From sequence record MH494197.1: a stretch of 64,000 nt of DNA; one strand, 5' to 3'. Positions 3,211 through 55,381 of this stretch are shown in pieces. The notes below the pieces were generated by a model. That model had not been told where the DNA came from, did no database searches, and worked only from the letters and a program-made list of their open reading frames with translations. Each line of letters begins with the position of its first letter. The first letter of the stretch is position 1. Source of the DNA: Escherichia phage CMSTMSU. The translations under genes were made by a program, and so were the position numbers.

Positions 3211-4302
3211 TATACCCCAATTAGTGGGATACCTGTTATGTTAAGTAGAACAGATGCTTGAAGCTTAACTGACTCACCTGCCGAAAGGTTGTTTACTATA
3301 CCATCGACGCGGAACCCTAAGTTTTTATTAGAGTTGAGAGAGTTAATCACCCAGTTTTCGTAATCCGCTTTTGTAATACCATTCGGATTTGGGAGAGTTG
3401 GATCAACATCATTAATTACCATAGAAACATCCCAATTCGGGCGACTACTTGTAATTACATCCTTGATTGATTCTAGTTGTGTAATGCGACGTGGATCTGG
3501 AATCTGACTTGCACCAATTGAACCGAAAAATGTACCTTGGTTATCAACATAGAACTGACCTTTAATGAAAAATGTTTTGAATTATACGGAAGAGAAACAA
3601 TTTCACCTGATGAATCACTAACTTCACGAATCATAATTTTCAATTCATAAAAATAGTTACTACCAAATTCAAACACACCAGTACCATTTGTGAATGTTGT
3701 CCAGTTATTTGAATCAACCTGTGAAGTACCACCCATATTGAAGTACGCTAATGGCTTAGTACTGTTACTTTGTGTAAATTCAATATATTTCTTACCTGTA
3801 TCATAGTTGATATCAAGTAGTGTTGAGTACTCTTTATTTTCTGGACGAGATGTTTGAATTTCACGCCATTCTTTATTTTTCATTAGGACACGAAGGAATC
3901 ACCATTACTGGTAAGAACCATACGACCCATAATACTATTTTCACCATCTGGTACTGTGTTGAAAATTGAAATCATTGGGATAGATGCCCAGTCAGCTTCA
4001 GATGCAGTATCTACTGGCTGACGAGCATTATCAACTAATGCAAGAAGTAGTTCGCCAGTGTTGCCAGTATTTCTGTACCAAATCTGACCATTAACGTTAC
4101 CACGAGGTGCAGTAGCTCCACTGAAGTTCTCAACCAAGTGGAGGAAGTTTTCGTTCCATGCTTGACCGTAACCAACTTTATTTCGACCTGCAAAGTTTAA
4201 CGGTACTGGGTTACTACCGTTGGTTTGGTCCTAATATTACGTTATTTGGAATGGTAGCATAAACGCTACCATTACTTCTATAAATTGTATAACTTACACT
4301 CA
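3210..4302 (-). CDS. Structural protein (tail/baseplate-associated?), frame broken into at least 4 pieces
   Basis: Track ORFs 3210..3422, 3473..3883 and 3883..4137 plus N-terminus MSVSYTIYRSNGSVYATIPNN with RBS AAGGTGA at 4302 join across single-base frame changes. Confidence 0.35.
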
Positions 4303-4311
4303 TATCATCAC

Positions 4312-4923
4312 CTTATTATTGTAGTTGGACACGAACTGTGTATTTGATTTGCAAAACACGGTTAGCACTTTTCTCAACTGGGTGAAAAATAATATGGGTA
4401 AGTGGAATACCGCTATCACCATTTGTATATAAACCCAATTCGTCAAATACATATGTCCCATCCATGCTAGTACCAGAGCTAACACCTTGGTCAGATGGCT
4501 CACCTAAACCTAATGTGCAAATACAGACGATATCAGTGTAAGCTTGGCACGGAATGTGAACAGTTGTAATGTTGTTATATTGTGAATCAATACCAGCAGA
4601 GATACGTGGGTTGATTTTTTCAGATAAGTCTGAGAATATAGACCACCGAAAGAAGTAACGCGTGGTTTCTTGTATGTGATACGACCAGTACTCAAAACTA
4701 CTGTTCCACCATTACCAAAACGCATCTCACTAATAGATCCAATAGGAATACCAGTACTATCTTGATTATAAGCCAACGCATTAGCAATAGCAGTACTCAT
4801 ATTTTCAGGGTGAATTGCGTTTGATTTATCCAAAACGATTTTTGGTTAGATGGATCAGTAACGTCAGTAATTAGTACATGACCCTTAACAAATAGTTTTG
4901 GTTGTTCTGTTTCTAATTTCATT
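4312..4923 (-). CDS. Hypothetical structural protein (~200 aa), frameshifted
   Basis: ATG at 4923 (MKLETEQPKLFVKGHV) with RBS AGGA; continues through ORF 4510..4833 and a further frame to a stop near 4312. Confidence 0.35.
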
Positions 4924-5537: not shown

Positions 5538-6663
5538 ATGACAATTTCATTCAACAATGGGTCAGGTGGTTCATGTAATAATTCTGGCATCAAAAGTTTA
5601 GTTATTAACGCTGCTGGACATTTAATTGTAACCTATTCCGACAATACAATCCAAGACCTAGGTCTAGTGGTTGGACAAAATGGTGCTAACGGTAGAAACT
5701 TTTATCCAAATGAGATAGGTTTTGAAGTTCCTAATGAACTCTTCCGTGTTGGTGAAGAACTAGGGTGGTGTTATCTTAGTCTTGCAAACGGCACTAGTAC
5801 TTTATATTTTAAATCAAACGATGCCCAAGAAACAATTAGTACTTGGAACCGTGTAGAGTTTGGTAAAGGTGATACTGGTGAAGCTGGTAAACCATTCCAC
5901 ATTGACAGTTCTGGTACGGCGTTTCCAACAACTGGTCTTTTCGATAATTACACATTCTATAATACTGAAGATGGTAAATTATATTTCTATCAAAGCGTAA
6001 CTGCAACATGGAGTGATGGTATTCCTTTCCGTGGTGAACAAGGTCTACGTGGTCGTTTCCATATTGATAGTACTGGTAGTCAATTCCCAAGCATTGATAA
6101 TCTACCACAAGATTATTGCTTCTATAACACGACAGATGGTAATTTGTATTATGTCGATATCGTAACTACATCATCAACCCCAACTAAAGAGTGGAGTGCT
6201 GGTATCTTATTCCGTGGAAAAGACGGTGAAGAAGGTAAGCAAGGTGAACAAGGTATTCAGGGTGAACGGTAAAGATACAGTTGTTATCATCAACACTATT
6301 GATCATTCATGGACTAACGCATTGTTAGTTATTGGTACATGCCCTGCTGGATACCTAGTAACTAATATCGAAGTTGATATTAACCAAGCATATGATGAAC
6401 CAGTAAATGAAATGTTTGTACGTTTCGGTGGTGAAGCACAAGAAGATATTGGTGGTACTGTAATTGCACCTGTTGATTATTTCGATATCAACCGCAAAAT
6501 GCGTTACATTGTTAACGAAACCAACCACGAAGTATCAAGTAAAGATGAAATCATTTCTTGTGTATTCAATGATTCCGTAAACAACAGTTCATTTGGTGAA
6601 ATGAAGATCGTTTGTACTTTATCATGGCAAGCACCTATTCAGCCTATTCAAGATAACATTTAA
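5538..6663 (+). CDS. Fibre-like protein with three tandem ~55-aa modules each ending in a short collagen-like Gly-X-Y run; one frameshift near 6270
   Basis: Repeats FHIDSxGxxFP...FYNTxDGxLY...WSxGIxFRG followed by GKGDTGEAGKP, RGEQGLRGR and RGKDGEEGKQGEQGIQGE. C-terminal domain continues in ORF 6196..6663. Confidence 0.5.
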
Positions 6664-6705
6664 AGAGGGTTGATAAATGGCAGTTTTTCCAATTTAGAAG
6701 GGACC

Positions 6706-8770
6706 ATGATGCCAACATTCAAGTTGGGTAAACGTGGTGCTTCTATTAATTTTGTAAACGATTCTGTCGCAATCAAAGACTTTTAGGCGAAACGTTCCTA
6801 CCTGTTAAGGTGGGAACTCCTAATGACGATGATTCCGCAGTAAACGTTAGGTATCTTGAAGATAACCCAAATGCTTTATTTGGCGTACTTCCACCAACAA
6901 ATGACATTGGTAAAAATAACAACACTTATTTTCAAGTTGATTCTGAGGGTATTGTTGATATCTTTGCAAAACAAATGATGTTTGGGTAAAATCATTATAC
7001 ATTAATAAAAATGTCCTTTCCAGTGTTAACGGTGCTGATTATATCGGACTTATTACTGGAGGAACACTTCAACAGGCACAGTTTTACATAACACCAGAAG
7101 AGTTTGGTGCAAAGGTGATGGCATCACTGATGACACGGCGGCGTTAACGCATGTGCAGTTTATGCTAAAGAACACAAAATCCAAATTCAAGCTGGTGGTA
7201 ATTATCGTATCAGAACTGCTGTTTATTTGAATGATATTCAATGGTTTGGTGGTACAATCACTGGTAACGGTGGCACAATGGTATCGGTACTGAATAGTAC
7301 AATCCAACAAGCAACATTAACAGGATGTTATTTAAAATTCTTTGGTGGTAATGGTAAATTTTATTTTAATAAATTTATTAATATTACAAGTACTGCTGCA
7401 TTTCTAATGCAAGGTATGACTGAATCAGGTACTATCGACTTCTGCTTTAATGAAATGACACAATGTAAGTACGGTGTTCTTCAGCAAGGCACTGGTGAAA
7501 AATGACAGTTGGGCGTTATTCATACAACCACATCCATGATATATATGGTGATGCAATTGAATTGAACGTAGTCAACTCACATTACCCAGACGGATTTGTA
7601 ATAGAAGGCAACTTGATTGAAAACGTAGATGGTACAAATGCACCAATTCCTCTTTCAAACTGGGGTATTGGTATCGGTGTTGCAGGTTCTGGTCCTTATG
7701 ATGTGAATGCTGATGATTCACAATATGTAAAAAATTCGTTATAAAAATAACCGCTTGTACAATGTCCGTCAATGTATTCACGTTGAGTTGGGTAAAGACT
7801 TTAAAATTCTCAATAATGAAGTTTATCCATCAACGTTGGTATCAATTGGTACTGGTTTGACAACCGCTGGTGTAATTACTTATGGTTCTGTTGATTTTAT
7901 TATTGATGGCCTATCTGGGCATCTATTAAATGATCCATCAGTAACTAACCGTATGGTTTCTATTAACTGGGGCGTAACATCTGGTAAATTTGCTGGTCCT
8001 CCACGAAACTTTAAATTATGTAATCTCCACATTCCTGAGTCGTCTATTATTGTGTATACTTCAGGCTCTGATAATTGGCTAAATACTACTGAACTTTCTA
8101 ATATTACATGTAGTAGAATTCAATGGCGTGGATTGCCGTCATCTTCCAAGTTTAATAATATCAGTACTAAAGAACTTGATGTTATTGGACAACACCTTGC
8201 AACTGAAGGTGAAGGAGGGGCTTATATACTCGCTCTAAATATACATATACCAACTGGACTAATTGTGTTGTTCAAGATGATTGTAACATATCAAAATATA
8301 GTTTCTCAAGAATGTATGTTGACCGTATTGACCAATCATCTAATAACTTTAAAGTAACCACTGCAATTGATGGAACGGGTCATCGTGGACCTGTAGTAAT
8401 ACCTGTAGTTGAACAGTATTACGTGCCTTATGATGTTTTTCCGGTGGGAGATATTTCCCAACAGGAACAATTATCCATAAACAATCAGGTGGAAAATTTA
8501 TTGTTACAGTAGGTGGTTCTTTCTTTGGTCGATATGACACAATTAGACAAACAGTTGCAGGACAAACTTATATCGAAGCATTGGGTGTATCATGGGGTGA
8601 TAATCAATATGCTAAAGCTGCTGGAACCGAAATCCTAATCACAGGAGCAGGGGAAAATGGCGAAGATTTAAAACATATATCACTAGAGCAGTTTATGTTG
8701 TTAATAATGCGTATCGTATCGATATTGCCGATCCGATTGTTACTGCTACCGCAGCAGGGCATTATTGAAA
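6706..8770 (+). CDS. Tailspike / tail fibre with pectate-lyase-3-type beta-helix (putative polysaccharide depolymerase), frameshifted
   Basis: Translation around 7090-7150 gives ITPEEFGAKGDGITDDTAAL, the signature start of pectate_lyase_3 tailspikes. N-terminal module MMPTFKLGKRGAS is shared with the gene at 8850. Track pieces 7227..7505, 7502..7744, 7755..8357, 8312..8512. Confidence 0.55.
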
Positions 8771-8849
8771 GCTGCTCAACCAATAACATATATCACCCTA
8801 TCTTAAAGGAGATTATAAAAATGGCAGTTTTTCTAATTTAGAAGGAACC

Positions 8850-9715
8850 ATGAAGAAGACCTTCATACTTGGTAAAAATGGTGCACAAATTGCCACTAAT
8901 GGTAATGTTGTTCAAATCCAGAACTACACGGGTACACAACTTCTTCCTGTTTCAGCAGGTGACCCAACCGCAAATACACACTTGGTTACATTGGGTTATT
9001 TGAATACACATAGCGGTGGTGGTGGCGGTTCCGGTATTTTACGTGGAACTATTGCACCATCTGAATCAATCGGTGTAGATGGTGACGCTTACTTCTTAGT
9101 TGACAGTACTAATATTATTCAGATCTATATTAAAGACCTTGGTGTTTGGAAGCCTCTCCAAAGCACAACTCCGTACTGATAGTTCTTACGTTACTACTGA
9201 AATCGTTCCTGTATCGGCATTTACATTAGTTCACGGAACAACAGATCAATATACTTATTCTTTACCTGAATCAGTACATGGTCGTGGTCCAGATATTATG
9301 GTTCAGCTACAGGGTGATCCCGGTAACATCCCACTTGACACTGTATTCCAAACTAACGTCACTGTGAGTGGTATTGGTGACATTACGATTGATGTTATTG
9401 GTCAAATTACTGAATACACAAGTGTCAAAGTCAACATCATAGGAGCAACAACAATGACAGTACCTTATAGTAAATTAATTAATATAGCAGATTGGGTAGC
9501 ATCTGGTGATGATTACACCATTACTGTTCCAGCGTCAGAACATAACCAAACACCTGACAATTTGTATATTTCTATATATTCAAATAAAACACCGCAGTAC
9601 AGCAGCATCACCATTTGAACTGGTAATAACCGAAACTCAAATTGATGCAAGTGGTAATGTTACATTCACTTCTGATGAAGCGTTTAGTGGTAAAATAGTA
9701 ATTTCCGGTAAATAA
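8850..9715 (+). CDS. Short tail fibre-like protein with shared N-terminal module and poly-Gly linker, two frameshifts
   Basis: MKKTFILGKNGAQ parallels the 6706 gene start; GGGGGSG linker; continues in ORFs 9100..9618 and 9506..9715. Confidence 0.45.
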
Positions 9716-9829: not shown

Positions 9830-12800
9830 ATGTACTCGATTAAAACAGATCTAGATATAACTGGTGGTGCAACGGTTGGTAAAGATCTTCTTGTGAAAGG
9901 CGATGCAGTATTCAATAAAAATCTAACAGTTAATGGAACTGTAACTTTTGCTGACGCTGTATTCACTGCAATTGAAGCAGGAACTGTAGACATTTCATCT
10001 ACACTAGATGTTGCTGGTAAAGCATCATTGAATGGTGGAATTGAAGTTCATGGTAATTCCGTAATTGGTAATTTGCCTGTTGGCTCTGATACTGCAACGA
10101 TTAATTCTAATGCACAATTCCAAAGCCCAGTATCAATGGCAGGTAACCTAACACAAACCGCTGGCACTGCTGTACTAAAAGATACCCAAGTGGCATCAAT
10201 GGATGTTCTTGGAACTTCTTCATTTAAAGGTAATATTACTGCTGAAACTGGCACTACCGCAGCATTTGACAAAATAACTGCAACTGATGCAACATTCACA
10301 AACACTGCAACTACTGATATCACATCAACTGGAACTGCAAACTTTAAAGATGTGAATATTTCCGGTACACTAGGTGGAACATTTAGTCTATCTGATGTTA
10401 ATGCAACAACTCTAACTGTTTCTGGTTTAACCAGTCTACAAGGTGGTGTTACATTAGGTTCCAACATTACTGGTGTGAATAGTAGTGCAAACTTCCGTGA
10501 TATTAAAATTGGTTCCAATGCTGCAAACACTAACTACCGTTTGAGCTTTAACTATTCTGCTCCAAGTCTTCGCCCAACTGTAATTCTACAGAACGAAATC
10601 CAATCAGAATTGATGTCTCCAGCTACCCTAAGTGTATTGAAAACTGCATCTTTTGGTGATTCGTCATTATCCACTTTTGGTATTACTGGTAATGGTCTAA
10701 ACAAACTAGATTACCTAACAGTATCTGGTAACTCTGTTCAAGATCCAGCAACTCCACTATTACAAGTAACTTCAGGTAAAACTAAAGTTCATGATTTCGA
10801 AGTAACAGGAACTGCAACTATTCCTAACATTGAAAGTACTGGTACTGCTAATTTTAATAACATCAACGTATCTGGTACACTCGGCGGTACTTTCAGTCTT
10901 GATGATATTGAAGCAAACACTCTAACTGTTTCTGGATTAACTAGCCTTGTTGGTGGTGTAACTTTAGGTGCTGATATTTCCGGTGCTAATAGTACTGCTA
11001 ATTTTAAAGCAGTAAGTTTAGGACAAAACGCAGCCGATGCTAACGTTAAGTATGGTTTTGCTTATTCTGCCCGGTGCTCGTCCAACTGTAATTCTACAAA
11101 ATGAAATTCAGTCTGAACTAGTATCTCCAGCAGTACTAAATGTACAAAAACTGCTACCTTTGGTGATGCATCTCTTGCAACCTATGGTATCACAGGTAAC
11201 GGTCTAAACAAACTAGATTATCTATCTATTACTGGTAATGGTACACAAAGTCCAGCTACCCCACAACTACAAGTAGCTGGTAAATCAGTACTAAATGATG
11301 TTGAATTCACTGGTACTGTAACTGGTCTAACTGTTGATGTGAGTGGACAAGATCTAACTCCTAAATCAGTAGTTGCTGCTGAAGCAATCAAAGGTCAAAC
11401 CCTTGAATCAGTTGGTCAAACCACCGTAGGAACTAACCTACAAGTTGGTGGAACTGCTAATGTTGTTGGTGCACTAACTGGTACTGCTGCTACCTTCACT
11501 GGTGATGTAAGTGCTGCTAAAGGTACTTTCAGTGGTGATGTTAGCGTTACTGGTCAAACTGTAACTGTACGTGATTTAGTAGTAACTGGTACAACTACTG
11601 GTGTAACTGCCCAAGCTGATGTTGATGGTCTTGATATCGCCCCAAATAAAGTTGATGTTACAACAACACTATCTGTTGCTGGGGACACTACTTTAGCTGG
11701 CCTAACTGCTAGTTCAGTAACCAGTACTGGTGATGTTACTGGTGCGTCTGTATCTGGTAATACAGTAACTGCGGCTGGTGCACTATCTGGTGGTTCTCTT
11801 GCAGTAACTGGTGCTGGTTCTATGGCTTCACTAACTGTTCCAAGTATTACTGGTGACACTACTTTTGCTAATAACGTAACTATTACTGGAACACTAACTC
11901 CGAGTAGTATAGATTTAAGCACTACTGATGTAAGTGCTGCTTCTTTAACAACTACTGGTAACGTAACTGTTGGTGGTTCTCTTGCAGTAACTGGTGCTAT
12001 TGATTTGTCTGCTGCTGATGTAGTAACAAAATCAGTTAGTGCAACTAACCCAAGTACATTTGGTGTAATTAATGCATCTTCTGTTGTCGCAACTGGTGAC
12101 GTTTCAGGTGGCACTCTAACTACTACTGGTGCAGCGAAAGTAGGAACACTAACTAGTACTGGTGTAGTATCTGGTTCGCGTTTGTCTTCTGGTACTGCAA
12201 CAATCTCAACTTCTGTAACAGTTCCAACTTTACAAGCTGAAGCTGCTGGTGCTGGTACACTAAATCTAGCAAGTAATGTTGTCGCGGCAAAGATCTAACT
12301 GTCACTGGTGTATTCAAACCTGAAGGTGGTCTTGACCTAACAACTGTTGATATTACTGCAAACTCACTAACTACTACTGCTGATGTTAATGTTGGTGGAA
12401 ACTTAGTAGTTGATGGTACTTTTGACCTAAGTGCTGCTGATGTGTCTGTGAAATCTCTTGCAAGTGCAGAGACAATTACAAGTGCTGGTGTTATTACCGT
12501 TACCGATTCAACCAATACTAGTTCGTTACCTAAAATTACTTCAACTGATGCAACACTCTTTACAGTAAATGCAGGTACTATTAATGCAACTGGCAACAGT
12601 GTACTACAAAGTGTATCAGCTACTCAAGTAACTGCAACTAGTGCTGAATTGACTGGTGTTGGTCTTGGTCTTCAAGTCGATAATGATGCAAACGTTGGTG
12701 GTGCATTATCTGTTGGTGGAATCGCAACTGTTGGTTCTTTAACAACAACTGCTGCTTCTCTTAATATTGCAAAAATACTGCAATCACTGGTGATTTAGCT

Positions 12801-14759
12801 GTATCTGGCACACTAACTGCTGGTTCAATCGACCTAAGCAATACTGATGTAACCGTTAAATCTCTTGATTCACTAGGTAACGCACACATTGCTGGTGACC
12901 TAACTGTAGATGGTGCATTCGACTTAAGTGCAACTAACCTTGTAGCTGCAAGTCTAGCAAGTACTGGTTCTACTACTGTTGGAACTGATCTAGTACTAAC
13001 AACTGGTGTTGTGACTGGTAGCCCAGCTATCTCTGGTAATACAACAATCGGTGGAACTCTTGGTGTAACTGGTGCTGTTAACCTAACTGATATTGTTAAT
13101 ATCGGTAAGAAAGTAACAGTGAGTACTGGTGGTATTCAGGTAGTTGATGGTGGTATCAATACTAACACAATTAACGTTTCTGGTGCTTCTACTCTAGCAG
13201 GAACTTCCATTACTGGAACTTTAGGTGTAACTGGTGCTTCTACTCTAGCAGGTGTATCTGCGACATCACTAACAGTTTCTGGTGACAGTACTGTTCAGAA
13301 ACTAACTGTCCAAGGTGAATTGATCCCACAAGGTGGTCTTGACCTAAGCGGTGCAGACATTACTGCTAATAGTCTAACTACTGCAACAACTATCAATGCA
13401 ACTGGCCTAAGTACTCTAAGTGGTGGTGTTAGTACTTCTACTGTGACTGCATCTGGTCTAGCAACTGTTGGAAGTTTAACTTCTACTGCAAACGCATCAG
13501 TTGGTGGCAATTTGGGTGTAACTGGAACTCTAGATGTTACTGGTGCTACTACTGTATCTTCACTAACAGCTACTGGTGCAGTGAAAACTGGCACAACCCT
13601 AACTGTTGGTACTCCAGTTGGTGAACAACCTGAAACTGTACAGATCATTCCAGATACTTATATTGCTGGTAAATTGCGTGTAATCGGCGGTATTAACGCT
13701 GAAATCGACGTAAGTGGTCAAACACTAGAACCATATGCAATTGAAGCTGCTGCAACACTATCTGCTGTTGGTAACATTACTTCTGGTGCAACCATCGTTT
13801 CTAAAGCTGCAACAATTGGTGATGTTGGTTCACAAAACAACAACCTAACTGTTAATGGTAACGTAGTAACTAATGGTGACTTCACCGTTACTGGTGTACT
13901 AAATGCACAATTGAACCAAGCAGATTCCGATGTAGCTGTTAAATCTTTAACTGCAACTAATAACGTTGCGGCTGGTACTTCAATCACTGCTGGAACATCC
14001 ATCACTGCATCAGGCTTACTAAAAGGTAATTCGTTAGAAGTCACCACTACTGGTTCATTTGGTGGTGCAGTAACTATGTCAAGTGGTGCAAACATCACTG
14101 GTACTGTTGGTATCACTGCTGGTGACCTAACAGTAGGTGGTAATATCTCTGCAACTGGGACTGCTGGATTCGGTGCAACAACCGTTTCTACCATTACAAC
14201 ATCAGGTTTAGCTACACTTGCAAGTGCATCTGTAACTGGTGCTCTAACTGTAGGTGGTACATTAACTGCAAATGGTAACACTGTGATTGGTGATGCTGCT
14301 GCTGATACTTTAACTGTAAATGCAACATCGACATTTAAAGAGAACGCAACATTTGATAAGAACCTAACAGTGACTGGTTCTATTAACACCACCACTGCAA
14401 ACTTCACCACAAACAACATGGTAACTAAGAAATATTCTGTTATCCCTGCTAGTGTTACTGCTTCTACTGCTGCTGTAGGTGGTACTTGGACACCAGATGG
14501 TACTACTAACGTATATCGCTTAACTCTTGACCAAAGTGTTACAATGGATTCCATCGCGGGTCTAATTGGTAGTGGTCAAGCATGTTCAGTGTATATCTAT
14601 GTAACTCCATCTGTTGCTGATACTACTTTCACCTTCGGTGGTGCATACTCTGTAGTTTCTGGTACAGTAAGTGCTGTAGTTGGTCAAACAAGTATTATCC
14701 AAGTAATCTATGATGGTTTCAGTACTGTGTTTGATACCTTCGTTGCACAACGTGTATAA
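9830..14759 (+). CDS. Giant repeat-rich fibre protein A (~1640 aa), reading frame broken at about 11100, 12300 and 12800
   Basis: Track ORFs 9830..11104, 11339..12298, 12442..12798 and 13011..14759 all carry V/T/G/S/A-rich short repeats (xTVxGxxTLxG). RBS GGAGGGA. N- and C-termini are paralogous to fibre B. Confidence 0.6.
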
Positions 14760-14778
14760 CATTTTAAATTAATAATTA

Positions 14779-41339: not shown

Positions 41340-42121
41340 GATAATCATTCCAAGTGGATCACCACCATCTTTGTATCTCTTCAACTGTTCTTTAAGCTGT
41401 TCTTGAAGTTGTGCACCTTCATTACGTAATGTATCACCATCCATAGAGAATGTACCCTGTGGTCCGCAATGTAGCAAATTTAGCACGGTTGCGACCCAAC
41501 ATAATCATAGCTTCAGACAATGCCCAGTCACGTAGCCAAGGATAGCTTTGTTGACGTTGGAATAGCAATGGTTCAGGTATATTATGATATACATGTAATA
41601 GCACTTCTTCAGTACCACGAATATCACGGTCAATTATTAGTTTTTGGTCATTGGGTTGAACTGGAAGATGATTTCTCTACCAAACATACGCCCAACTAAT
41701 TCTTGGAACTGAAAACTAAAATCATAAGTAGTTAAGTCATAACCACCAGCGTTACGTGCAGACGTTAAAAGGTAAGTGTTGGTAAATGCGAGTGAAAAAG
41801 GGTCTACTGAGTTACCACTTCCAGAACTTAGATAACCGTTACCATAACGATAAATCTGTTTGACAATTTCAACTTCAGTAGGGAGCATGTATACAGATTG
41901 TGAATCATAGAATTTCATGTTCAAGAATGCTTCTTCTTTGAAGCAGAACTCCATGCTCGGTAGTTTGATACCGCATTATCAATTGCAATTTCCAATTGAC
42001 CATCAGTAATTTCAACTTCAACTGCACCAGCACCTAACATTTGAGTGATAACATCTTTCAGTTTTTCACGATGATCAAAGTTTGGAGCATCTGGGTTTCC
42101 ACCCATATAATCGTAAGACAT
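41340..42121 (-). CDS. Hypothetical protein (~260 aa, possibly structural), frameshifted
   Basis: Starts MSYDYMGGNPDAPNF; track ORFs 41921..42151 and 41637..41954 plus a C-terminal frame. Confidence 0.3.
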
Positions 42122-42328
42122 AAAAAGCACCTCATTAATGTTTATATACATTATTTAGAGGTGCTAATAGTTATTTGGAATTATACAAGCAATACAAGTA
42201 TACCATAGGAGCAAAATGTTCGGTATCAACTAAGTATATTAACTGGGTGTCATATATACCGTACAAATCTCGAAATTTATCTCTGTACAGCAACAATGAC
42301 TTATTGTTGTGTGGGTCAACCCAGTACT

Positions 42329-42757
42329 TTAAGTCATTGTAGTGCAACGTGTTATTACGGTAACCTGATAATATTTGTTTTTAGCCAACTTTTTACAATT
42401 ACTTAGTAAATGCATGATGGCATCAGCGGTAAATGGTCCCAGTACTAAAACTTCTTCTCCATTACCGAAGATACTCAATGGTACAGATTGTTGTCCTGCT
42501 AGATATTCGATTTGTTCTAATTCGAAAATGTCATCAGCAGCATAAACAACCTGTTCCATTTCATTATCTTTAATCCATGACTGCCAATGTTCTTTAAACT
42601 GCTTCGCTTCGTATTCCAGTACATAGTTAGGTGATTCTGGATTGTACTGATGTAGCATTGTCATACCAGCCATAACCAGTTCTTTTGGTGATGGAGTAGA
42701 ATCTTTCAGTACTACGATAGCTTGGATAGTTTTAACTTTAACGTTTTGAGCAGCCAT
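42329..42757 (-). CDS. Hypothetical protein (142 aa)
   Basis: Intact ORF. Confidence 0.4.
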   Translation of the reverse strand: MAAQNVKVKTIQAIVVLKDSTPSPKELVMAGMTMLHQYNPESPNYVLEYEAKQFKEHWQSWIKDNEMEQVVYAADDIFELEQIEYLAGQQSVPLSIFGNGEEVLVLGPFTADAIMHLLSNCKKLAKNKYYQVTVITRCTTMT

Positions 42758-42779
42758 TAGATACCTCTATTATAGAATG

Positions 42780-43075
42780 ATTTTGTTATCAGGAACAATC
42801 AGTGCTGGTTTTTCTTCGATAGCCTTGATTGCTTCAACATAAGCTTCAACTAGTGCAGGGTTTGCATCGCTGATGCTAATGATGTTGGATTTATAAAAAT
42901 AACGCCTTTTTCAGAACTAATGAATTCTAGGTAATCACGTAGAATGATTTCACCTTGTTCGTCAGTACCTAGCTGTGCTGGGTAGTTAACTACTACTGCT
43001 TCTGGTGCATCATTTTGTAGAATTGCTAGTACTGCCAACGCTGTTGATGTTTAGTAGTTTAACGGTCATAGTCAT
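42780..43075 (-). CDS. Hypothetical protein, frameshifted
   Basis: ORF 42850..43038 with flanking frames. Confidence 0.2.
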
Positions 43076-43093
43076 TTTGTCAAGTCCTTTTGT

Positions 43094-43570
43094 TTATTTT
43101 AGAAAGTATAAGTGTTTTTCTGCATTAACCAGTCTGTGGTCAATGATTTCTTTGATAACGTTCCAGTTACCACCGCCTAAATCGGCTCCAATTTTCGGGA
43201 AGTGTACATGAACAGTGCGTTCAACGTTACATAAGTAATTGAGTTGTTTGAAAACATCATCGATTGCATCATAACTCACATACTTAGAACCGTCATTACC
43301 ATAGTACTTTTGGGTAATGCAGTTTGCGATAAGCAAATCATCACTTATAGAAGAATATGAAATTTGTCCTGTTCTTAGAAATCCCATTTCCTTTTCATAT
43401 GCTTTATAATCATCATATGCCATCGGATAACGATTTCTTAGTTCTTTTGCAAAACCCGAACCCATCTTACCCTGTGCATTACAACCATGAGCGATTATAT
43501 GCAACGCGGTTTGATCATCAGTAACAGTGTTGAACAATTCAAACAAATTACCTAGGTGTTCATGTATCAT
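43094..43570 (-). CDS. Macro-domain protein (ADP-ribose binding/processing family)
   Basis: HIIAHGCNAQGKMGSGFA matches the macro-domain glycine-rich ADP-ribose-binding motif (HGCN..G.MG.G.A). Confidence 0.5.
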   Translation of the reverse strand: MIHEHLGNLFELFNTVTDDQTALHIIAHGCNAQGKMGSGFAKELRNRYPMAYDDYKAYEKEMGFLRTGQISYSSISDDLLIANCITQKYYGNDGSKYVSYDAIDDVFKQLNYLCNVERTVHVHFPKIGADLGGGNWNVIKEIIDHRLVNAEKHLYFLK

Positions 43571-43613
43571 TATATTCTCCGAAAGAAAGGACTCTGTAAT
43601 CAGAGTCCTTAAT

Positions 43614-43877
43614 TTATATTTTATTCTTCTTCACCGAATCGAATTTTTTCAATTCTTTTCGTTGTTTGCGAGCAATGGTACTTTTGTGAAGTCTATTACC
43701 ACGTTTTGTGTCTTTCGTAATGTACCATGAATCTTCTGGTGCATCATAATCACAATAACCATCTTCTGTAATCGTCCCTAAGAAAGCAGACTTTTTAGGA
43801 ATGGATGTTTGAGCTTTAGCAGCGAATTGGCCTTTTGCTAATTGTTCACGAAAACTGAGCATAATAGTATCTCCCAA
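43614..43877 (-). CDS. Hypothetical basic protein (87 aa)
   Basis: Intact ORF. Confidence 0.35.
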   Translation of the reverse strand: MGDTIMLSFREQLAKGQFAAKAQTSIPKKSAFLGTITEDGYCDYDAPEDSWYITKDTKRGNRLHKSTIARKQRKELKKFDSVKKNKI

Positions 43878-43907
43878 ATTGTTACGAAGAACTTGTGTTC
43901 TTCATTA

Positions 43908-44150
43908 TTATTTAGGGTTGCTCGAAACCTCTACTGAAGCGATGAATGCCAAAATATCATCTTTACTGAAAGCTTCAATAATATAAGCAACCGCTTTATC
44001 GTACTGTTCTTTCTTAGTAGTGTATTCTTTCATTTTGTGAATTTTACGTTGTGCTTTAACTTTTGCAGCTTCCATATCAGGCATTTTAAATTCAACACCC
44101 AATGTGTCAGCTAAATGTTTTGCACGAGATGATACTTTATCAATATTCAT
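43908..44150 (-). CDS. Hypothetical protein (80 aa)
   Basis: Intact ORF; its start overlaps the glutaredoxin stop (TAATG). Confidence 0.35.
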   Translation of the reverse strand: MNIDKVSSRAKHLADTLGVEFKMPDMEAAKVKAQRKIHKMKEYTTKKEQYDKAVAYIIEAFSKDDILAFIASVEVSSNPK

Positions 44151-44902: not shown

Positions 44903-46136
44903 TTAGAACATTTGCTTGATTGCTTCAATACGCAATTCAGCAACAAAATCACGAATCTCCGATGTTTGGAGTTCACCATCTTTCACTAACTGCTGAATAT
45001 CAGGTAATTCAACATCAGTATAACGATCATAAACTTTAATAATCAAATCTTCAAGTTCAGAATCAATTTCTTTGTTCAAAATGAAGTTTTCCAGTACTTT
45101 GTAAAGGAAATCTTCACCACCATTGTTTTTGATATTCATATCCAGTAAGATTTGTCCCATTTCAACTGGGGTCTTCTTACGGAAGGTTTTAATATCTTCA
45201 CGGAAACGCTTGATGTAATTATAAACTTCACGTACTTAACTGGAACCTTAATGGAACCGTTAAGTACTGAATCATTATTTACTTCTTCATTTTCAAGAAG
45301 TACTGTCCATAAGAAATATGGTTTATATTCTTCTGTACAATTTACAGAGATAGAATCAATTAATTCCAGACGTTTCTTGGTAACTGGAACTGTAGTAAAT
45401 GCCTTTTCGTAATAACCAAATTGTACCAGAGTTTTGATAAACTTGGAAGGGTTTTCTTCAGAAAGTGCTTTTCGAATTCAACAAAACACGATCTGGAACT
45501 AGATGGTCTAGTTCACCAGTACTAACCATATCTTTACACATTGTCATAGTATCATCATGGATTGTAAAGTCGGAGTAACGCGTAGCGAAACGGGCCAAAC
45601 GTAGAACACGCAATGGATCTTCTTTAAAGTGTTCTGATACATGACGAAGTACTTTGTTCTTGATATCAGCTTTCCCGCCATAAGGGTCGATGTGAATCTG
45701 GAGTACTGGATCATATGCAATACTATTGATTGTGAGATCACGACGATATAGATCTTGTTCTAGTGTCACACCTTTGTATTCACTTCGAAACCACCATATC
45801 CAGTACCAGTTTTACGCTCAGTACGGGCTAATGCGTGTTCATTACCTTCTGGACTTAGATATACAGGAAATCCTTACCTACTTGCTTGTATCCAATACTT
45901 TGCAAGTATTTAATATCGGATTCGGTAGCACCGACAATAACATAATCTTTGTCTTTTGCACGGATGCCCATTAAACGGTCACGAACGTAGCCACCAACCA
46001 AATACTTTTTCATATCATTCCCCATCAACCAATCACGTAGACGTTCCCAGAAGCCTTTTGGCTGATATTCTGGATATTCATATTCATCTGTTCCTTGCTC
46101 GGAAACACCCCAATCTTCTTCTAATACTGTAATCAC
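44903..46136 (-). CDS. cca: tRNA nucleotidyltransferase (CCA-adding enzyme), frameshifted; likely true start MKKYLVGG near 46013, preceded by an in-frame ~40-aa module
   Basis: [29 protein letters not shown] and [13 protein letters not shown] are the head-domain signatures of class II CCA enzymes (E. coli: YLVGGAVRD, RRDLTINALA). Confidence 0.7.
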
Positions 46137-46149
46137 AATGCCTCCAATT

Positions 46150-46569
46150 AAATTAATCTATCACGTAGACGGTCGTAATATTTTGCATGTATATCTAGTA
46201 TACACTGAAATGACGGATAGTCAATACTAAATGTATCATCAATGAACATGTACTGATCAAGTGTTTCAGGACCATTATCATAAACTGGCAATGAACCTTC
46301 TTTTTTAACAGTGTGTTCCACATCAAATCACATGTAGTATCGAAAATTGCGTATGCTAATTCTATCTTACTTTTTCTAAGTGTAATTAATAATTCATCAT
46401 TCTCTACTAACGCGTTTCGTATTTTTACACGTACTGTACCCTGAAATTTATTAGTGGTTAGTACTCTATATTGATTATACGAAATCATGCCTCGTATTTC
46501 AGTACTGATTTCTTGTTCAGAAAAGTACCTTAATGTACTGTGGAAATTTGGTATTTTACGAATGTCCAT
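46150..46569 (-). CDS. Hypothetical protein, tandem paralog (frameshifted C-terminus)
   Basis: C-terminal [27 protein letters not shown] parallels SGSLPIDASYEEYLQYQFIDDTFGFDF of the 46556..46966 gene. Confidence 0.35.
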
Positions 46570-46966
46570 TCAAATTCCTTTCGTATATATGGTATACGTT
46601 CATTATACTATTATATAGTTCAAAGTCAAATCCAAATGTGTCATCAATGAACTGATATTGTAGATACTCTTCATATGAAGCATCAATTGGTAATGAGCCA
46701 GAACGAATATCATCTGATTTAAAATCGTCAATATATCTTAATGTTATTTCTTCATCAACAGTGATATCTATCATCAACGTATCGTCACTGTACCAAAGGT
46801 TATGTATACGGATGTAAAGTTTCTTAGCACGATTAAAACTAGATACATTGGTATTGCGATGGAGTTTATCTAAGTTGAAGTAAAACCGGCTCGTTTTACT
46901 TATGTTTTTCATATGTTCTGCAATCGAATCAATTATATAATCAATGTTGAATGTTCTCATAAACAA
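46556..46966 (-). CDS. Hypothetical protein, tandem paralog (136 aa)
   Basis: Intact ORF. Confidence 0.4.
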   Translation of the reverse strand: MFMRTFNIDYIIDSIAEHMKNISKTSRFYFNLDKLHRNTNVSSFNRAKKLYIRIHNLWYSDDTLMIDITVDEEITLRYIDDFKSDDIRSGSLPIDASYEEYLQYQFIDDTFGFDFELYNSIMNVYHIYERNLNGHS

Positions 46967-46989
46967 ATCTCATAGCGGTTTGTGTTTGG

Positions 46990-47264
46990 ATTGTAGCAAT
47001 AGGTATCATTAATTTTAACACGGTTTAAGTGTTATTGTTGTTCCTACTTCAGTACTGGGTTCTGCATCACAATAAATCATCACACCAACGCCACAGATTA
47101 AAGCTAAGATACAAATAATAGCACATATTATATATTCCATCACTCCCCATCAGCCAATCAAAGAGACGTTCCAAGAAGCCATTAGGCTTGTATTCTGGTT
47201 CTTTGTTCACGTCGGTTTCTTGTTCATAAACACCCAAATCTTCTTCAAGTATAATTGTATTCAT
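46990..47264 (-). CDS. Small protein: conserved N-terminal module plus C-terminal transmembrane segment (frame break between them)
   Basis: MNTIILEEDLGVYEQETDVNKEPEYKPNGFLERLFDWLMG followed, in a neighbouring frame, by MEYIICAIICILALICGVGVMIYCDAEPS. Confidence 0.3.
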
Positions 47265-47647
47265 TATATATTATACTCTATTATACCATCATCACTTTCA
47301 CCAGACAACCACTTAATGTAATTTACTTTGTAGAAATTAATCAATGCATAAGTGCTGTACTCAATCAACAAGTGATCTCTCAAGAATTCGTCTTGAGCAT
47401 ATCCATCTTCATCCAAATCTGTTGGAATATCAGTTTCTTTGTCTTGAATGTGTAAAGTTATTGTGTCTTTTGTTATACAAATTTTTATATGATTACAAAT
47501 AGTAATGATGATTATGCTATATGTTCTATTGAAATATATTGTGAAATCTTCATTAATATTATATCTTCGACTTTCTTCATATTTCTGATATGGGTCGAAA
47601 TGTGATAAATTAACTTTAATTAATGTATTTCTCAACTTACACCTCAA
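47264..47647 (-). CDS. Hypothetical protein (127 aa)
   Basis: Intact ORF. Confidence 0.4.
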   Translation of the reverse strand: MRCKLRNTLIKVNLSHFDPYQKYEESRRYNINEDFTIYFNRTYSIIIITICNHIKICITKDTITLHIQDKETDIPTDLDEDGYAQDEFLRDHLLIEYSTYALINFYKVNYIKWLSGESDDGIIEYNI

Positions 47648-48039
47648 TCATATAAAGTAATTATACATTTTATTGTACAATATAAAAGGTCTTTCACATT
47701 ATCATAAGTAATATCAGATATATCATGAATTAATGATAACTGAAAAATGAAGCTTCGTCTATCTCTACTGGGATTATAACATCATAGTCTTCGTCAATTT
47801 TATGGGTGTAGTATTTTATGTGATCAGCATTCAACACAAGGTTGTATTTTGTATCATCTTCAATTAATCCGACAAATTGAGATTTTTGATTAATAAAAAT
47901 CCAATCCCAACACAACGGTTATCTGGATATGGATAGTACCATCTATTAATAACTAGGTGTTCAGGTAAGTCCATATCATGTGTTGATATTAAAGATTTTA
48001 CAATTCCCATCCGGAATAATTCATAATTAAAACTCCATA

Positions 48040-48070
48040 AGAAAAGGGACAGAATAATCTCTGTCCCTTT
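48040..48070 (-). terminator. Rho-independent terminator
   Basis: AGGGACAG-AATAATCT-CTGTCCCT with flanking A/T runs. Confidence 0.5.
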
Positions 48071-48077
48071 ATTATAT

Positions 48078-48409
48078 CTTACTCTTCGTCTTCAGTCAAG
48101 TCTTCTTGAACTGGATGTTCGGGTGGTTACGGCGATGCAATTTGATGCTTTTGTCTTTACCTAAGACAGTTTCCATTTTTCAAATGAATCACCAATTGCT
48201 TTGTATAAATCTGCATCATCGGCGGTGACAATCTTACCACCTGATGTTAAAGTTACGGAATATTGATTCTTATGCTCTTTCTTCACATGAACACCGATAT
48301 AAAGTACTGAAGAATCACTAAATTTCGTTAGTACATTTGCTTCTGCATGAATCGCGTCATTGATTGCTGGAGTAATATCAACATTACCTTGGATAACTAA
48401 ATCTAGCAT
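48078..48409 (-). CDS. Hypothetical protein
   Basis: ORF 48161..48409 plus a shifted C-terminus. Confidence 0.3.
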
Positions 48410-48423
48410 AATTTACCTACCTT

Positions 48424-49017
48424 TTAGAGTGAGCTTAACAGCAAATCCGCTCTGTTTGTAACTTGGCGATACCACAAGGAATTCATGATTTCTTTCTTGA
48501 ACTTCTTAGGGTTATCCATTTTAACACTTTTCCAAAGTTTGTCAAATGTTGCCAACTTATCAACGCCCATTGTGTATGACATTTCAAACAGGATACGCTG
48601 CTGTTCTTTTGTCAGATTAACTGCATCTTTCTTCTGCATCAATAGTGTAAAGTCCTCGTAAGTCCTTTTCATATCTTGCATTAAAAGTTTGTTGGCCTGT
48701 GCTTTGGTAATCCCGTTTCTGTACTTCATTGCATCAGAATCTTTCTTACCCAAATAATGCCCATAACCAATTGTATAATTACCTTTCATGTCCTTATAGG
48801 GATGAAATTTAGAATTGTGGAAAGGAACTCCAACTTTCCCACCAAGTAATTTACGTTTGTTCTTGGACTGAAATTCAATAGAACCTTCAGCTTCTTTGAT
48901 GTGATCGACAATTTCTGGATCTTTATAATCAAACAGTACAGTCACATCTGGTAACAATACGTTCTTCAAATCCTCTTTGTTGGGATAAAGATACCTGAGA
49001 AGTATGAAGAGTTGCAT
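48424..49017 (-). CDS. T4-type lysozyme (GH24 family), probable endolysin
   Basis: IKEAEGS...KDMKGNYTIGYGHYL and LWYRQVTNRADLL parallel T4 lysozyme ([38 protein letters not shown]). Confidence 0.8.
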   Translation of the reverse strand: MQLFILLRYLYPNKEDLKNVLLPDVTVLFDYKDPEIVDHIKEAEGSIEFQSKNKRKLLGGKVGVPFHNSKFHPYKDMKGNYTIGYGHYLGKKDSDAMKYRNGITKAQANKLLMQDMKRTYEDFTLLMQKKDAVNLTKEQQRILFEMSYTMGVDKLATFDKLWKSVKMDNPKKFKKEIMNSLWYRQVTNRADLLLSSL

Positions 49018-49032
49018 TTAAGTTGATATTCT

Positions 49033-49299
49033 TCAACAAAATGACATAATCTTCAATCTGTACATTTTAGGTTTAAATTTCTGTGCAATAGAATAATAAC
49101 TATCTCCGGTTGAACCGTATAATGTTTCTCGCTGCTTGGAACTGCCTTTGGTACTGATACCTTTAGTAGTTCCTGCTTTTGAATTTACAACTTGTGGTTT
49201 TAAATTATGCACCTGACTTTCGTCTAATGATGATGCACGATCACTTTGAGAAAAACCATAAAATCCAATCGCAGCGAATAGGGCTGATGAAACTAACAC
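49033..49299 (-). CDS. Small protein with N-terminal hydrophobic segment (signal/TM)
   Basis: VLVSSALFAAIGFYGF hydrophobic N-terminus; sits immediately upstream of the lysozyme on the same strand. Confidence 0.3.
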   Translation of the reverse strand: MLVSSALFAAIGFYGFSQSDRASSLDESQVHNLKPQVVNSKAGTTKGISTKGSSKQRETLYGSTGDSYYSIAQKFKPKMYRLKIMSFC

Positions 49300-49923
49300 G
49301 CCTATGGCAATTTTAGTTTTCAGTGCTTTTTCGCTTTTTCAAAACGCCTCCTTTGTTGGTTGTTAACAATGAGCAATCACAAAGAGGGCAAAGAGGCCAT
49401 TTGCAAAAGCCTCATTGGACTTTCTACAGTACTCATTTGTTCTTTGGAACATTTAAGTAGTATAGCATACTTTTTAGTTATATCAAGACCTATTTACCAA
49501 ATAACCACATTAATCGTAGTATGTTCTACCAATGGTGATGTGATATTTGAAATATTTAGATGCCAAACCCAGTTCATTACGAATATGTGCAATGAAATCA
49601 TCTTCAAACTCTATGATAAAGAATGACCGGTTTCTTATTGTCTTTTACTTCTTCGATGAAAGGATCGAACTTAATCTTAACTTTCATACCATCGTACTTT
49701 TCCAGTACTCTGGATTTGGTGGCACTTCACCACGAACGATACTGACATGTGCTCCCCATTGTGGGTCTTTAATATCAATATGTAAGTCAGTTCTGATGAA
49801 GTACTGGTAGTATCGAACCAACTGTAATGGAAGTTGCAGTACTAACCAGAAGTCCTTCTTCTTTTCATAGTGCCACGATCTGGATCATACACCAGAGTTC
49901 CTTCCATTTCAATCATATTTTAC

Positions 49924-50127
49924 CTATAAATTTACATATATATTTTTATTTTCAATACGAACATAAGTTTCTAAAACATCTTTCGGAATTTTATTACTTG
50001 TTTTGTACCATGTAGTATTATCTACTAAAACAAAAGTTTCACCTTCAGTTTCACCAAATGTACTTAGTGCATAAATGAAGTAGTTTGGTGATGCACTACA
50101 ATAAACATCAGCATTAATTTCAATCAT
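49924..50127 (-). CDS. Hypothetical protein (67 aa)
   Basis: Intact ORF. Confidence 0.3.
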   Translation of the reverse strand: MIEINADVYCSASPNYFIYALSTFGETEGETFVLVDNTTWYKTSNKIPKDVLETYVRIENKNIYVNL

Positions 50128-51652: not shown

Positions 51653-52308
51653 CTACTGAACTAAAAATAAGACTAGTCGCTTTTTAAATCCAGATAGTAC
51701 ATCATTCAAAACGCGTTTCATAAATGAATCAACCATTTTATTCCTCATATAATCCATATAGCAAGTTCTGCATAGACTCTTGTATGATTCATCACCACCA
51801 ATAAAGACTTTATCAGTACTTTCAACTATACGGGCATTCATAGTGGCTTCTTTGCCACACTTCTGATTCTCACACACGTTCTTAAGTTCATGTATGTCAT
51901 CAGCTATTTCGAACAGTCTTTGTGAACCTTCAAAAGATTGATTCAAAATCTGTTCGTATTCCATAACAGGAAACATCAACACCATAATTATCTGCTATAT
52001 CAGCTAAATGGTCAATTTGTTCTCTGTTTAAAATTGACATTCATCAACATAGATACTGTTAATGTCAACGTCATTTTTGAGTGTTTCTTTAACTTTAAGA
52101 AGAACACTAATGTCATTTTTGGAATTACTTCAGCCACAGCTTCGATGCCAATTCTTGAAGTAATCTTTCCTGTTCCATAACGATCATCAAGTGCACTGGT
52201 TAAGTAAATTACCTTCATTCCATTTTTCTTATGGTTATATGCTTTTTGTAAAAGATGAGTACTTTTACCACTAGACATACTACCATAGTAATATACTAAT
52301 TTACCCAT
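51653..52308 (-). CDS. tdk: Thymidine kinase, at least 3 frame breaks
   Basis: MGKLVYYYGSMSSGKSTHLLQ (P-loop) and DDRYGTGKITSRIGIEA; shifted frames give VDECQF, CYGIRTDF and the zinc-ribbon region CGKEATMNARI...VFIGGDESYKSLCRTCY. All collinear with E. coli Tdk. Confidence 0.8.
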
Positions 52309-53104: not shown

Positions 53105-53112
53105 ATAACTCC

Positions 53113-53403: not shown

Positions 53404-53462
53404 ATCCTTATTCTTTTGTAATGTTTAGTTTAGAAACGAAATGGTTTTTGCTTCTTCAAATG

Positions 53463-54680: not shown

Positions 54681-54761
54681 TAGTCCAGATGTTACGCGTA
54701 ATCACTCATTTTTAATCCTTTTTTTATTTTTCAAGTTTATCAATAATAGAAGGTGATACTT

Positions 54762-55340: not shown

Positions 55341-55351
55341 TTTATTTCTCC

Positions 55352-55381
55352 AAAGAAAAGGAGAGTCACAATGACTCTCCA
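55352..55381 (-). terminator. Rho-independent terminator
   Basis: GGAGAGTCA-CAA-TGACTCTCC with a U-run on the minus transcript. Confidence 0.5.

What the first reader, a model, noticed from the sequence alone, without database searches (positions are those of the whole stretch)
6677..8852. Identical 6-codon mini-ORF (MAVF[P/L]I-stop) overlapping the RBS of two different fibre genes
ATGGCAGTTTTTC(C/T)AATTTAG sits at 6677-6697 and again at 8821-8841, in each case ending 9 nt before the main ATG (6706, 8850) with AAGG(G/A)ACC in between. Either this is a conserved upstream leader or coupling element shared by fibre genes, or the true N-terminus is MAVFSNLEGTM... and the T5 run is one T short in both copies, in which case both genes need the same +1 correction. 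The exact same arrangement at two loci makes random error less likely than a systematic homopolymer under-call or real biology.
Basis: seen in the sequence. Interest (0 to 1): 0.45.

Follow-up and report, generated by a model that had tools for sequence, protein, structure and literature searches.

The report
Sequencing-error mini-ORFs in fibre genes
The two identical six-codon "mini-ORFs" are not real: each is the true start of a phage tail-fibre-type gene, cut short because the assembly dropped one T from a run of six, one of hundreds of such sequencing errors in this window.

Summary
ATGGCAGTTTTTCYAATTTAGAAGGRACCATGA occurs exactly twice (6677-6709 and 8821-8853; none expected by chance). 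The mini-ORF reading is an artefact.

The window is a 121Q/PBECO4-like E. coli jumbo phage (Asteriusvirus), about 98-99% identical to phage Ecwhy_1. Every intact relative examined reads straight through from that first ATG. The run is T6, or GTA TTT TCT at one 121Q site. The start reads MAVFSNLEGTM in most relatives, with A->S, V->I, L->F, E->D and M11->L variants in some, and it is the annotated start of the genes in Ecwhy_1 and 121Q. The T5 form is absent from three public collections; the T6 form is in 10 viral contigs.

The window carries 317 deletion against 19 insertion events relative to Ecwhy_1. Of 6-base homopolymers, 89% are shortened (T6: 30 of 35). Of 48 Dcm sites (CCWGG), 43 carry deletions and none survives. 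Of 79 reference genes, 71 carry indels. This is the known error signature of unpolished nanopore assemblies.

Restoring only the indels gives a 713-aa colanidase tailspike and a 299-aa virion protein, each matching its Ecwhy_1 counterpart at all but one position. The two sites look alike because the genes share a roughly 110-residue N-terminal module.

The parts
6677..6697 (+). Apparent mini-ORF 1 (MAVFPI*). In reality these are codons 1-7 of the colanidase tailspike gene, read out of frame after a lost T.
   Evidence: Ecwhy_1 has ATGGCAGTTTTTTCCAATTTAGAAGGG in frame as the annotated CDS start.
6684..6688 (+). T5 run that is T6 in the closest relative (codons GTT TTT TCC = Val-Phe-Ser). This is the site of the one-base under-call.
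   Evidence: deletion called at window 6684 within a reference T6 run; 30 of 35 T6 runs are shortened in the window.
6663..6669 (+). Shine-Dalgarno-like AAGAGGG, 7 nt upstream of the true start codon at 6677.
   Evidence: Read directly from the sequence. An AGGAG/GGAGG-type SD precedes the first ATG in all relatives.
6677..8806 (+). Colanic-acid-degrading tailspike gene (ortholog of Ecwhy1_205 / 121Q gp573, 713 aa). It is fragmented in the window by 12 missing bases.
   Evidence: restoring the 12 deleted bases gives 713 aa, no internal stop, 713/714 identity to Ecwhy_1; phrog_6117 'colanic acid degradation', E = 3.5e-252. Searches give the annotations.
6706..6708 (+).
   Evidence: The raw ORF from here is only 26 codons.
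8821..8841 (+). Apparent mini-ORF 2 (MAVFLI*). In reality these are codons 1-7 of the 299-aa virion protein gene, read out of frame after a lost T.
   Evidence: Ecwhy_1 and 121Q have ATGGCAGTTTTTTCTAATTTAGAAGGA in frame as the annotated CDS start.
8828..8832 (+). T5 run that is T6 in relatives (GTT TTT TCT). This is the site of the one-base under-call.
   Evidence: the T6 form is in 10 IMG/VR contigs; the T5 form is in none of the viral, metagenome or genome collections.
8806..8811 (+). Shine-Dalgarno AAGGAG, 9 nt upstream of the true start codon at 8821. It overlaps the last base of the stop codon of the tailspike gene.
   Evidence: Read directly from the sequence. Conserved in relatives.
8821..9713 (+). 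Gene for a 299-aa virion structural protein (ortholog of Ecwhy1_206 / 121Q gp572). It is fragmented in the window by 7 missing bases.
   Evidence: the repaired gene gives 299 aa, 299/300 identity; phrog_10468 'virion structural protein', E = 2.6e-92; the record note for the fENko-Kae01 homolog says 'identified with LC-MS/MS analysis'.
8850..8852 (+).

Best explanation
Both mini-ORFs are artefacts of a one-base homopolymer under-call (T6 read as T5). The assembly behind this window has the systematic error profile of unpolished Oxford Nanopore data.

In the real phage genome, the ATGs at 6677 and 8821 are the start codons of two adjacent virion genes. One is a 713-aa colanic-acid-degrading tailspike and the other a 299-aa structural protein. 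Each start has its own Shine-Dalgarno sequence, and both proteins begin MAVFSNLEGTM. Codons 3-5 (GTT TTT TCY = Val-Phe-Ser) happen to form a T6 run. Dropping one T shifts the frame into a TAG six codons in. The in-frame Met-11 codon, preceded by the Glu-Gly-Thr codons GAA GGR ACC, then looks like a new start with an RBS.

The two sites look identical because the genes are paralogous over a roughly 110-residue N-terminal module whose first 11 residues are the same. Shown here: the under-call, the error profile, the restored reading frames and the paralogy. Inferred: that the platform was nanopore, and that the shared module serves to attach both proteins to the virion.
For: (1) Relatives. Ecwhy_1 has T6 at both sites and annotates both CDSs from that ATG. 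121Q has GTA TTT TCT at site 1, a synonymous change that breaks the T run and keeps the frame, and T6 at site 2. All 15 homologous gene starts listed (11 phages from several genera) read through in frame. Their only changes are synonymous or conservative (V->I, E->D, A->S, L->F). A4 has TTG in place of the internal ATG.

(2) Public collections. The T6 form of the motif is in 10 IMG/VR contigs. The T5 form has 0 matches in viral, metagenome and genome collections.

(3) Window-wide error profile against Ecwhy_1. There are 317 deletion and 19 insertion events. The fraction of reference homopolymers shortened in the window is 0.3% (length 1), 5.5% (4), 42% (5), 89% (6), 88% (7) and 100% (8-9); for T6 it is 30 of 35. 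Of 48 CCWGG sites, 43 carry deletions, against 1-8% for control motifs, and the window retains no CCWGG at all. In 52-56 kb there are 21 deletion events and no substitutions. Of 79 reference CDSs, 71 carry indels.

(4) Repair test. Restoring only the indels gives full-length proteins with 713/714 and 299/300 identity and no internal stops.

(5) Literature. Dcm-motif errors and homopolymer-length errors are the two dominant consensus error classes in ONT assemblies of enterobacterial DNA (Wick et al. 2019, PMC6591954, read).

(6) Paralogy. The two proteins align over residues 1-110 at 41% identity, E = 2e-19. The module is found in 71 jumbo-phage records, at two places per genome in every listed Asteriusvirus record (E. 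coli phages and the related Salmonella SD phages).
Against: No raw reads are available, so the true run length in this particular isolate is inferred from relatives and from the window-wide error profile, not observed. The main reference, Ecwhy_1, is flagged UNVERIFIED in GenBank. This is mitigated because eight other relatives at 98.1-99.1% DNA identity show the same extra 16-17 bases over the 3-kb query, and because the reference genes are intact while the window's are not. About a third of the deletion events (104 of 317) fall in neither a homopolymer of 4 or more bases nor a CCWGG site. Some of those may be real differences or a further error class.
Confidence: 0.97

Rival explanations
1. 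A real, conserved six-codon upstream ORF (leader peptide or translational-coupling element) precedes both fibre genes. Its stop lies next to the RBS of the main ORF, so that terminating ribosomes reinitiate at 6706 / 8850.
For: In the raw window the arrangement is duplicated exactly, and an AAGG lies 5-8 nt before each downstream ATG.
Against: No relative has the stop codon; all read through in frame. The T5 form is found in no public collection. Variation in the 'leader' follows a codon pattern, with third-position and conservative changes. The downstream ATG is TTG in A4. The ORFs downstream of 6706 / 8850 are themselves broken after 26 and 109 codons.
Confidence: 0.01
2. This isolate truly has T5 at both sites. 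Expression of the full-length proteins would then need programmed +1 frameshifting or transcriptional slippage on the T run, or the genes are true pseudogenes.
For: T runs can support polymerase slippage (general knowledge). The same change is present at two sites.
Against: The same kind of loss affects 89% of all 6-base runs and 71 of 79 genes, including the tail sheath and other essential virion genes. A phage with that many real frameshifts would not be viable. CCWGG-specific deletions have no biological rationale but are a known basecaller artefact. 121Q lacks the T run at site 1, so the run is not a conserved slippery site.
Confidence: 0.01
3. The window is correct, and the relatives carry homopolymer over-calls (T6 is the error).
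For: Ecwhy_1 is flagged UNVERIFIED.
Against: The relatives' genes are intact and annotated full-length in many independently sequenced genomes from several genera. The window's genes are the fragmented ones. The deletions also hit CCWGG sites that are not homopolymers.
Confidence: 0.005

Closest known systems
Oxford Nanopore consensus errors: homopolymer-length deletions and Dcm (CCWGG) motif errors (Wick, Judd & Holt 2019, Genome Biol 20:129, PMC6591954)
   Same: Deletions far outnumber insertions. The error rate climbs steeply with homopolymer length. Nearly every CCAGG/CCTGG site is corrupted while control motifs are not. The DNA comes from a phage of E. coli, a host that carries Dcm.
   Different: The platform is inferred from the error signature alone; no run metadata or reads are available. 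The per-site rates here (89% of 6-mers, 90% of Dcm sites) imply that no effective polishing was applied.
Annotated genes 121Q gp573 / Ecwhy1_205 (colanic-acid-degrading tailspike) and 121Q gp572 / Ecwhy1_206 (structural protein)
   Same: Same synteny, between the gp574-like tail protein gene and the long-tail-fibre genes. Each repaired protein matches its Ecwhy_1 counterpart at all but one position. Same MAVFSNLEGTM start.
   Different: Only the frameshifting indels of the window; no biological difference was detected.
Shared N-terminal anchor modules of phage receptor-binding proteins (paralogous tailspikes or fibres with a conserved N-terminus and divergent C-terminal receptor-binding or enzymatic parts). 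The comparison rests on my own knowledge of multi-tailspike phages such as CBA120 and G7C and of the branched fibres of RaK2-like phages.
   Same: Two adjacent virion proteins share about 110 N-terminal residues (41% identity) and then diverge completely. One carries a pectate-lyase-like depolymerase body.
   Different: The profile built from the N-terminal-module alignment (A1) found no PDB match, and neither Pfam (full-length proteins) nor NCBIfam detected any family over these residues. The docking function is inferred, not shown. In RaK2 the module exists as a stand-alone 115-aa ORF.

Membership tests
Upstream ORF / leader peptide / translational-coupling element | The short ORF, with its in-frame stop, is conserved in related genomes. 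| tested here: not met
   None of the 15 homologous gene starts in 11 relatives has the stop. The T5 form has 0 matches in three public collections.
Upstream ORF / leader peptide / translational-coupling element | The downstream ATG is the conserved start of the main gene and has its own RBS. | tested here: not met
   The ATG is TTG (Leu) in A4 gp570. AAGGRACC is the Glu-Gly-Thr codons. The SD sequences lie upstream of the first ATG in all relatives.
Programmed frameshift / transcriptional slippage site | The frame discontinuity and the slippery run are conserved across relatives. | tested here: not met
   The relatives are in frame. At site 1, 121Q has GTA TTT TCT, with no long T run.
Nanopore-type systematic assembly error | Strong excess of deletions over insertions, with a rate that rises with homopolymer length. 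| tested here: met
   317 against 19 events. Shortened runs: 5.5% (length 4), 42% (5), 89% (6), 100% (8-9).
Nanopore-type systematic assembly error | Errors concentrated at Dcm methylation motifs CCAGG/CCTGG. | tested here: met
   43 of 48 sites deleted against 1-8% at control motifs; no CCWGG is left in the window. The signature is described in PMC6591954.
Nanopore-type systematic assembly error | Raw reads or signal show ambiguous run length, and accurate reads give T6. | not testable with these tools
   No reads are available.
Colanic-acid-degrading tailspike (phrog_6117; 121Q gp573-like) | Full-length homology to the family once the frame is restored. | tested here: met
   phrog_6117 E = 3.5e-252 for the Ecwhy_1 ortholog. 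The repaired window gene is 713/714 identical to it. Enzymatic activity was not tested.
Shared N-terminal anchor module of phage receptor-binding proteins | Homologous N-termini on proteins with unrelated C-terminal parts. | tested here: met
   Residues 1-110 align at 41% identity, E = 2e-19, with no significant similarity beyond. Alignment A1 has 18 invariant columns.
Shared N-terminal anchor module of phage receptor-binding proteins | The module physically docks the proteins to the baseplate or to another fibre. | not testable with these tools
   There are only record notes that homologs are virion proteins. The structure prediction was unusable.

The most novel reading that the evidence does not exclude
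The most novel reading left open concerns the real protein, not the mini-ORF. The 11-residue N-terminus MAVFSNLEGTM is nearly invariant and is kept in at least 71 RaK2-like jumbo phage genomes, including on two different proteins in Asteriusvirus. Together with the roughly 110-residue module behind it, it could be a common docking tag that lets different receptor-binding proteins plug into the same partner, perhaps the adjacent gp574-like tail protein. It could also serve as a recombination handle for swapping receptor-binding bodies. The reading that the T5 frameshifts are real and are decoded by programmed slippage is not strictly excluded without reads, but its probability is below 0.01.
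Probability: 0.35. Interest if true: 0.25.

Novelty: not a real feature. Interest (0 to 1): 0.05.

Why it matters
It matters as quality control, not as biology. This window cannot be read at face value. About 90% of its genes carry frameshifts, so any first-stage finding here that rests on short ORFs, 'overlapping' genes, split genes, missing CCWGG sites or odd start codons is likely to be the same artefact. The record needs polishing before annotation. The underlying biology is ordinary for branched-fibre jumbo phages and is already annotated in related records: two adjacent virion proteins share an N-terminal module.

Tried and rejected
- The T5 motif was searched in the viral, metagenome and genome collections. 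There were no matches, so neither the window's own record nor any other T5 carrier was found.
- A profile search of the N-terminal module against PDB sequences and an NCBIfam scan found nothing. Pfam gave only sub-threshold pectate-lyase-like and endosialidase-N hits in the tailspike body.
- A single-sequence AlphaFold2 model of the one intact window fragment (8850-9176) gave mean pLDDT 35. It is unusable, so no fold search was run.
- The RaK2 papers say nothing about the RaK2 homolog ORF061.
- tRNA and Rfam scans of the window found nothing.
- I considered whether the first 33 nt are conserved at the nucleotide level beyond the protein constraint, as an RNA element or a gene-conversion tract. 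I rejected it. The perfect identity among the IMG/VR hits comes from the exact-pattern search itself. Relatives found by protein similarity show ordinary synonymous and conservative variation.

Full report
**Observation.** ATGGCAGTTTTTCCAATTTAG lies at 6677-6697 and ATGGCAGTTTTTCTAATTTAG at 8821-8841. Each is followed by 8 nt (AAGGGACC / AAGGAACC) and then an ATG at 6706 / 8850. They translate to MAVFPI* and MAVFLI*. The 33-nt pattern occurs exactly twice in the window, and 100 dinucleotide-preserving shuffles gave none. The T5 runs are at 6684-6688 and 8828-8832. The region downstream is shattered into many short ORFs, and the supposed main ORFs from 6706 and 8850 run only 26 and 109 codons.

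**What the window is.** Megablast of 6400-9400 against phage genomes finds 35 records, 32 of which cover at least 80% of the query. Apart from one Erwinia and one Xanthomonas record that were not listed, they are E. coli and Salmonella phages, and all 30 listed are jumbo genomes (310-384 kb). The records whose taxonomy was retrieved (Ecwhy_1, 121Q) are Asteriusvirus. The nine best hits are 98.1-99.2% identical: Ecwhy_1, vB_Ec-M-J, WPEC5, EC.P1, fEgEco12, WPEC3, TH47, BF17 and Turkey3. In all nine, the 3001-base query spans 3017-3018 bases of the record, so the window is 16-17 bases short over 3 kb. In Ecwhy_1 and 121Q the region holds a gp574-like structural/tail protein gene. Then come a 713-aa 'colanic acid-degrading protein' (colanidase tailspike; Ecwhy1_205, 121Q gp573), a 299-aa 'structural protein' (Ecwhy1_206, gp572) and two long-tail-fibre genes.

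**The two sites in relatives.** Ecwhy_1 reads ATG GCA GTT TTT TCC AAT TTA GAA GGG ACC ATG ATG... and ATG GCA GTT TTT TCT AAT TTA GAA GGA ACC ATG AAG.... It has T6 at both sites, in frame, and these ATGs are the annotated CDS starts.
- At site 1, 121Q reads GCA GTA TTT TCT AAT TTT GAA GGA ACT ATG. The synonymous GTT->GTA change breaks the T run and keeps the frame.
- Fifteen homologous gene starts were examined in RaK2, Kaldavass, pEa_SNUABM_47, XbC2, XaC1, fENko-Kae01, PHA46, A4, JNE01, Ecwhy_1 and 121Q. All read through from the first ATG.
- The changes among them are synonymous or conservative (V->I, E->D, A->S, L->F).
- Each start has an AGGAG/GGAGG-type Shine-Dalgarno 6-10 nt upstream of the first ATG.
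- In A4 gp570 the internal 'main ATG' is TTG, coding Leu.

The exact T6 motif is present in 10 IMG/VR contigs. The T5 motif has no match in the viral, metagenome or genome collections. So the 'AAGGRACC RBS' is simply the Glu-Gly-Thr codons, and the 'main ATG' is Met-11.

**Is the missing T an isolated event or part of a pattern?** I aligned the whole window to Ecwhy_1.
- There are 317 deletion events against 19 insertion events.
- The fraction of reference homopolymers that are shorter in the window rises from 0.3% (length 1) through 5.5% (length 4) and 42% (5) to 89% (6), 88% (7) and 100% (8-9).
- For T6 runs the figure is 30 of 35, so losing a T at both sites is the expected outcome (0.73).
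- Of 79 complete reference CDSs in the aligned region, 71 carry indels.

The multi-base deletions fall on CC(A/T)GG. Of 48 Dcm sites, 43 carry a deletion, against 1-8% for control motifs (GGWCC, DCWGG, GATC, GTAC, CATG), and the window retains no CCWGG site. Deletions occur in every 2-kb bin. In 52-56 kb there are 21 deletion events and no substitutions, which is not an evolutionary pattern for coding DNA. Homopolymer-length errors and Dcm-motif errors are the two dominant consensus error classes reported for ONT assemblies of enterobacterial DNA (Wick et al. 2019, PMC6591954). That the platform was nanopore is an inference from this signature.

**Repair test.** I restored only the indels and kept the window's own substitutions. 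This yields a 713-aa protein (12 bases restored, no internal stop, 713/714 identical to Ecwhy1_205) from 6677-8806. It yields a 299-aa protein (7 bases restored, 299/300 identical to Ecwhy1_206) from 8821-9713. The first belongs to phrog_6117 'colanic acid degradation' (E = 3.5e-252), with weak pectate-lyase-like signals in Pfam. The second belongs to phrog_10468 'virion structural protein' (E = 2.6e-92).

**Why the two sites look alike.** The two proteins are paralogous over their first ~110 residues (41% identity, E = 2e-19) and unrelated beyond. The first 11 residues are identical. Across 12 homologs the invariant columns include M1, F4, S5, N6, G9, T10, F15, G18, K19 and G21. tblastn finds the module in 71 phage records; all those listed but one are jumbo genomes of 310-384 kb. 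It occurs at two places per genome in the 20 listed E. coli and Salmonella records (those whose taxonomy was retrieved — 121Q, A4 and JNE01 — are Asteriusvirus). It occurs once in RaK2, K64-1, GAP32, CBB, BF and in Erwinia, Yersinia and Xanthomonas phages. In RaK2 it is a stand-alone 115-aa ORF061w. A GenBank note says the fENko-Kae01 homolog was detected by LC-MS/MS. I infer that this is an N-terminal attachment module shared by two virion proteins, as is usual for phages with several receptor-binding proteins. This is not demonstrated. The profile built from the module alignment (A1) found no PDB match, and neither Pfam (run on the full-length proteins) nor NCBIfam detected any family over these residues. 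The only structure prediction I was allowed to run had pLDDT 35.

**Nucleotide-level conservation.** The perfect identity of the first ~33 nt among the IMG/VR hits is a consequence of the exact-pattern search. Relatives retrieved by protein similarity show ordinary third-position variation. There is no evidence for an RNA element, and Rfam finds nothing in the window.

**Verdict.** The mini-ORF, leader and coupling interpretation is refuted. The feature is not real biology. The underlying genes are already annotated in related public genomes. The useful result is a warning: about 90% of the genes in this window are frameshifted by sequencing error, and other findings from it should be read with that in mind.

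Noticed in passing
window 1-64000 (whole window): The window contains no CCWGG (Dcm) sites; the aligned part of Ecwhy_1 has 48, and 43 of them carry 1-3-nt deletions in the window. If read naively, this could be mistaken for restriction-site avoidance. It also implies that the phage DNA was Dcm-methylated when sequenced.
   Followed up: yes
window 52001-56000: There are 21 deletion events and 0 mismatches relative to Ecwhy_1. Apart from the technical indels, this segment has no substitutions relative to that phage.
   Followed up: partly
window 42001-44000 and 46001-50000: Mismatches cluster here (83, 94 and 130 per 2 kb, against about 0-35 elsewhere), together with most of the insertion events. 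There is also a dense run of non-homopolymer deletions at about 43210-43415. These are probably truly divergent or mosaic segments relative to Ecwhy_1, in the neck-protein to lysozyme region of the reference.
   Followed up: no
window 9830-14760 and 14906-about 20560: A second pair of paralogous fibre genes (long tail fibre proximal subunit, Ecwhy1_207/208) also share an N-terminus (MYSIKTDLD...) and several internal segments of 73-83% DNA identity. Both are fragmented by indels in the window.
   Followed up: partly
window 60247-60256: An 11-nt stretch replaces 45 nt of Ecwhy_1, a net loss of about 34 nt at the junction between the two BLAST segments. It is larger than the systematic errors, so it is probably a real indel or divergent patch.
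   Followed up: no
L016 (Erwinia phage Kaldavass) 301-331; L023 (phage JNE01) 444-2586: There are annotation inconsistencies in relatives. The Kaldavass homolog is annotated from the internal Met-11 codon although the upstream in-frame ATG with its SD is intact. The JNE01 colanidase gene is split into two overlapping CDSs, which suggests a frameshift in that record too.
   Followed up: no
L015 (RaK2) 4001-4348: In RaK2 the shared N-terminal module exists as a stand-alone 115-aa ORF (ORF061w) with no C-terminal body. It is not discussed in the RaK2 papers I checked.
   Followed up: partly
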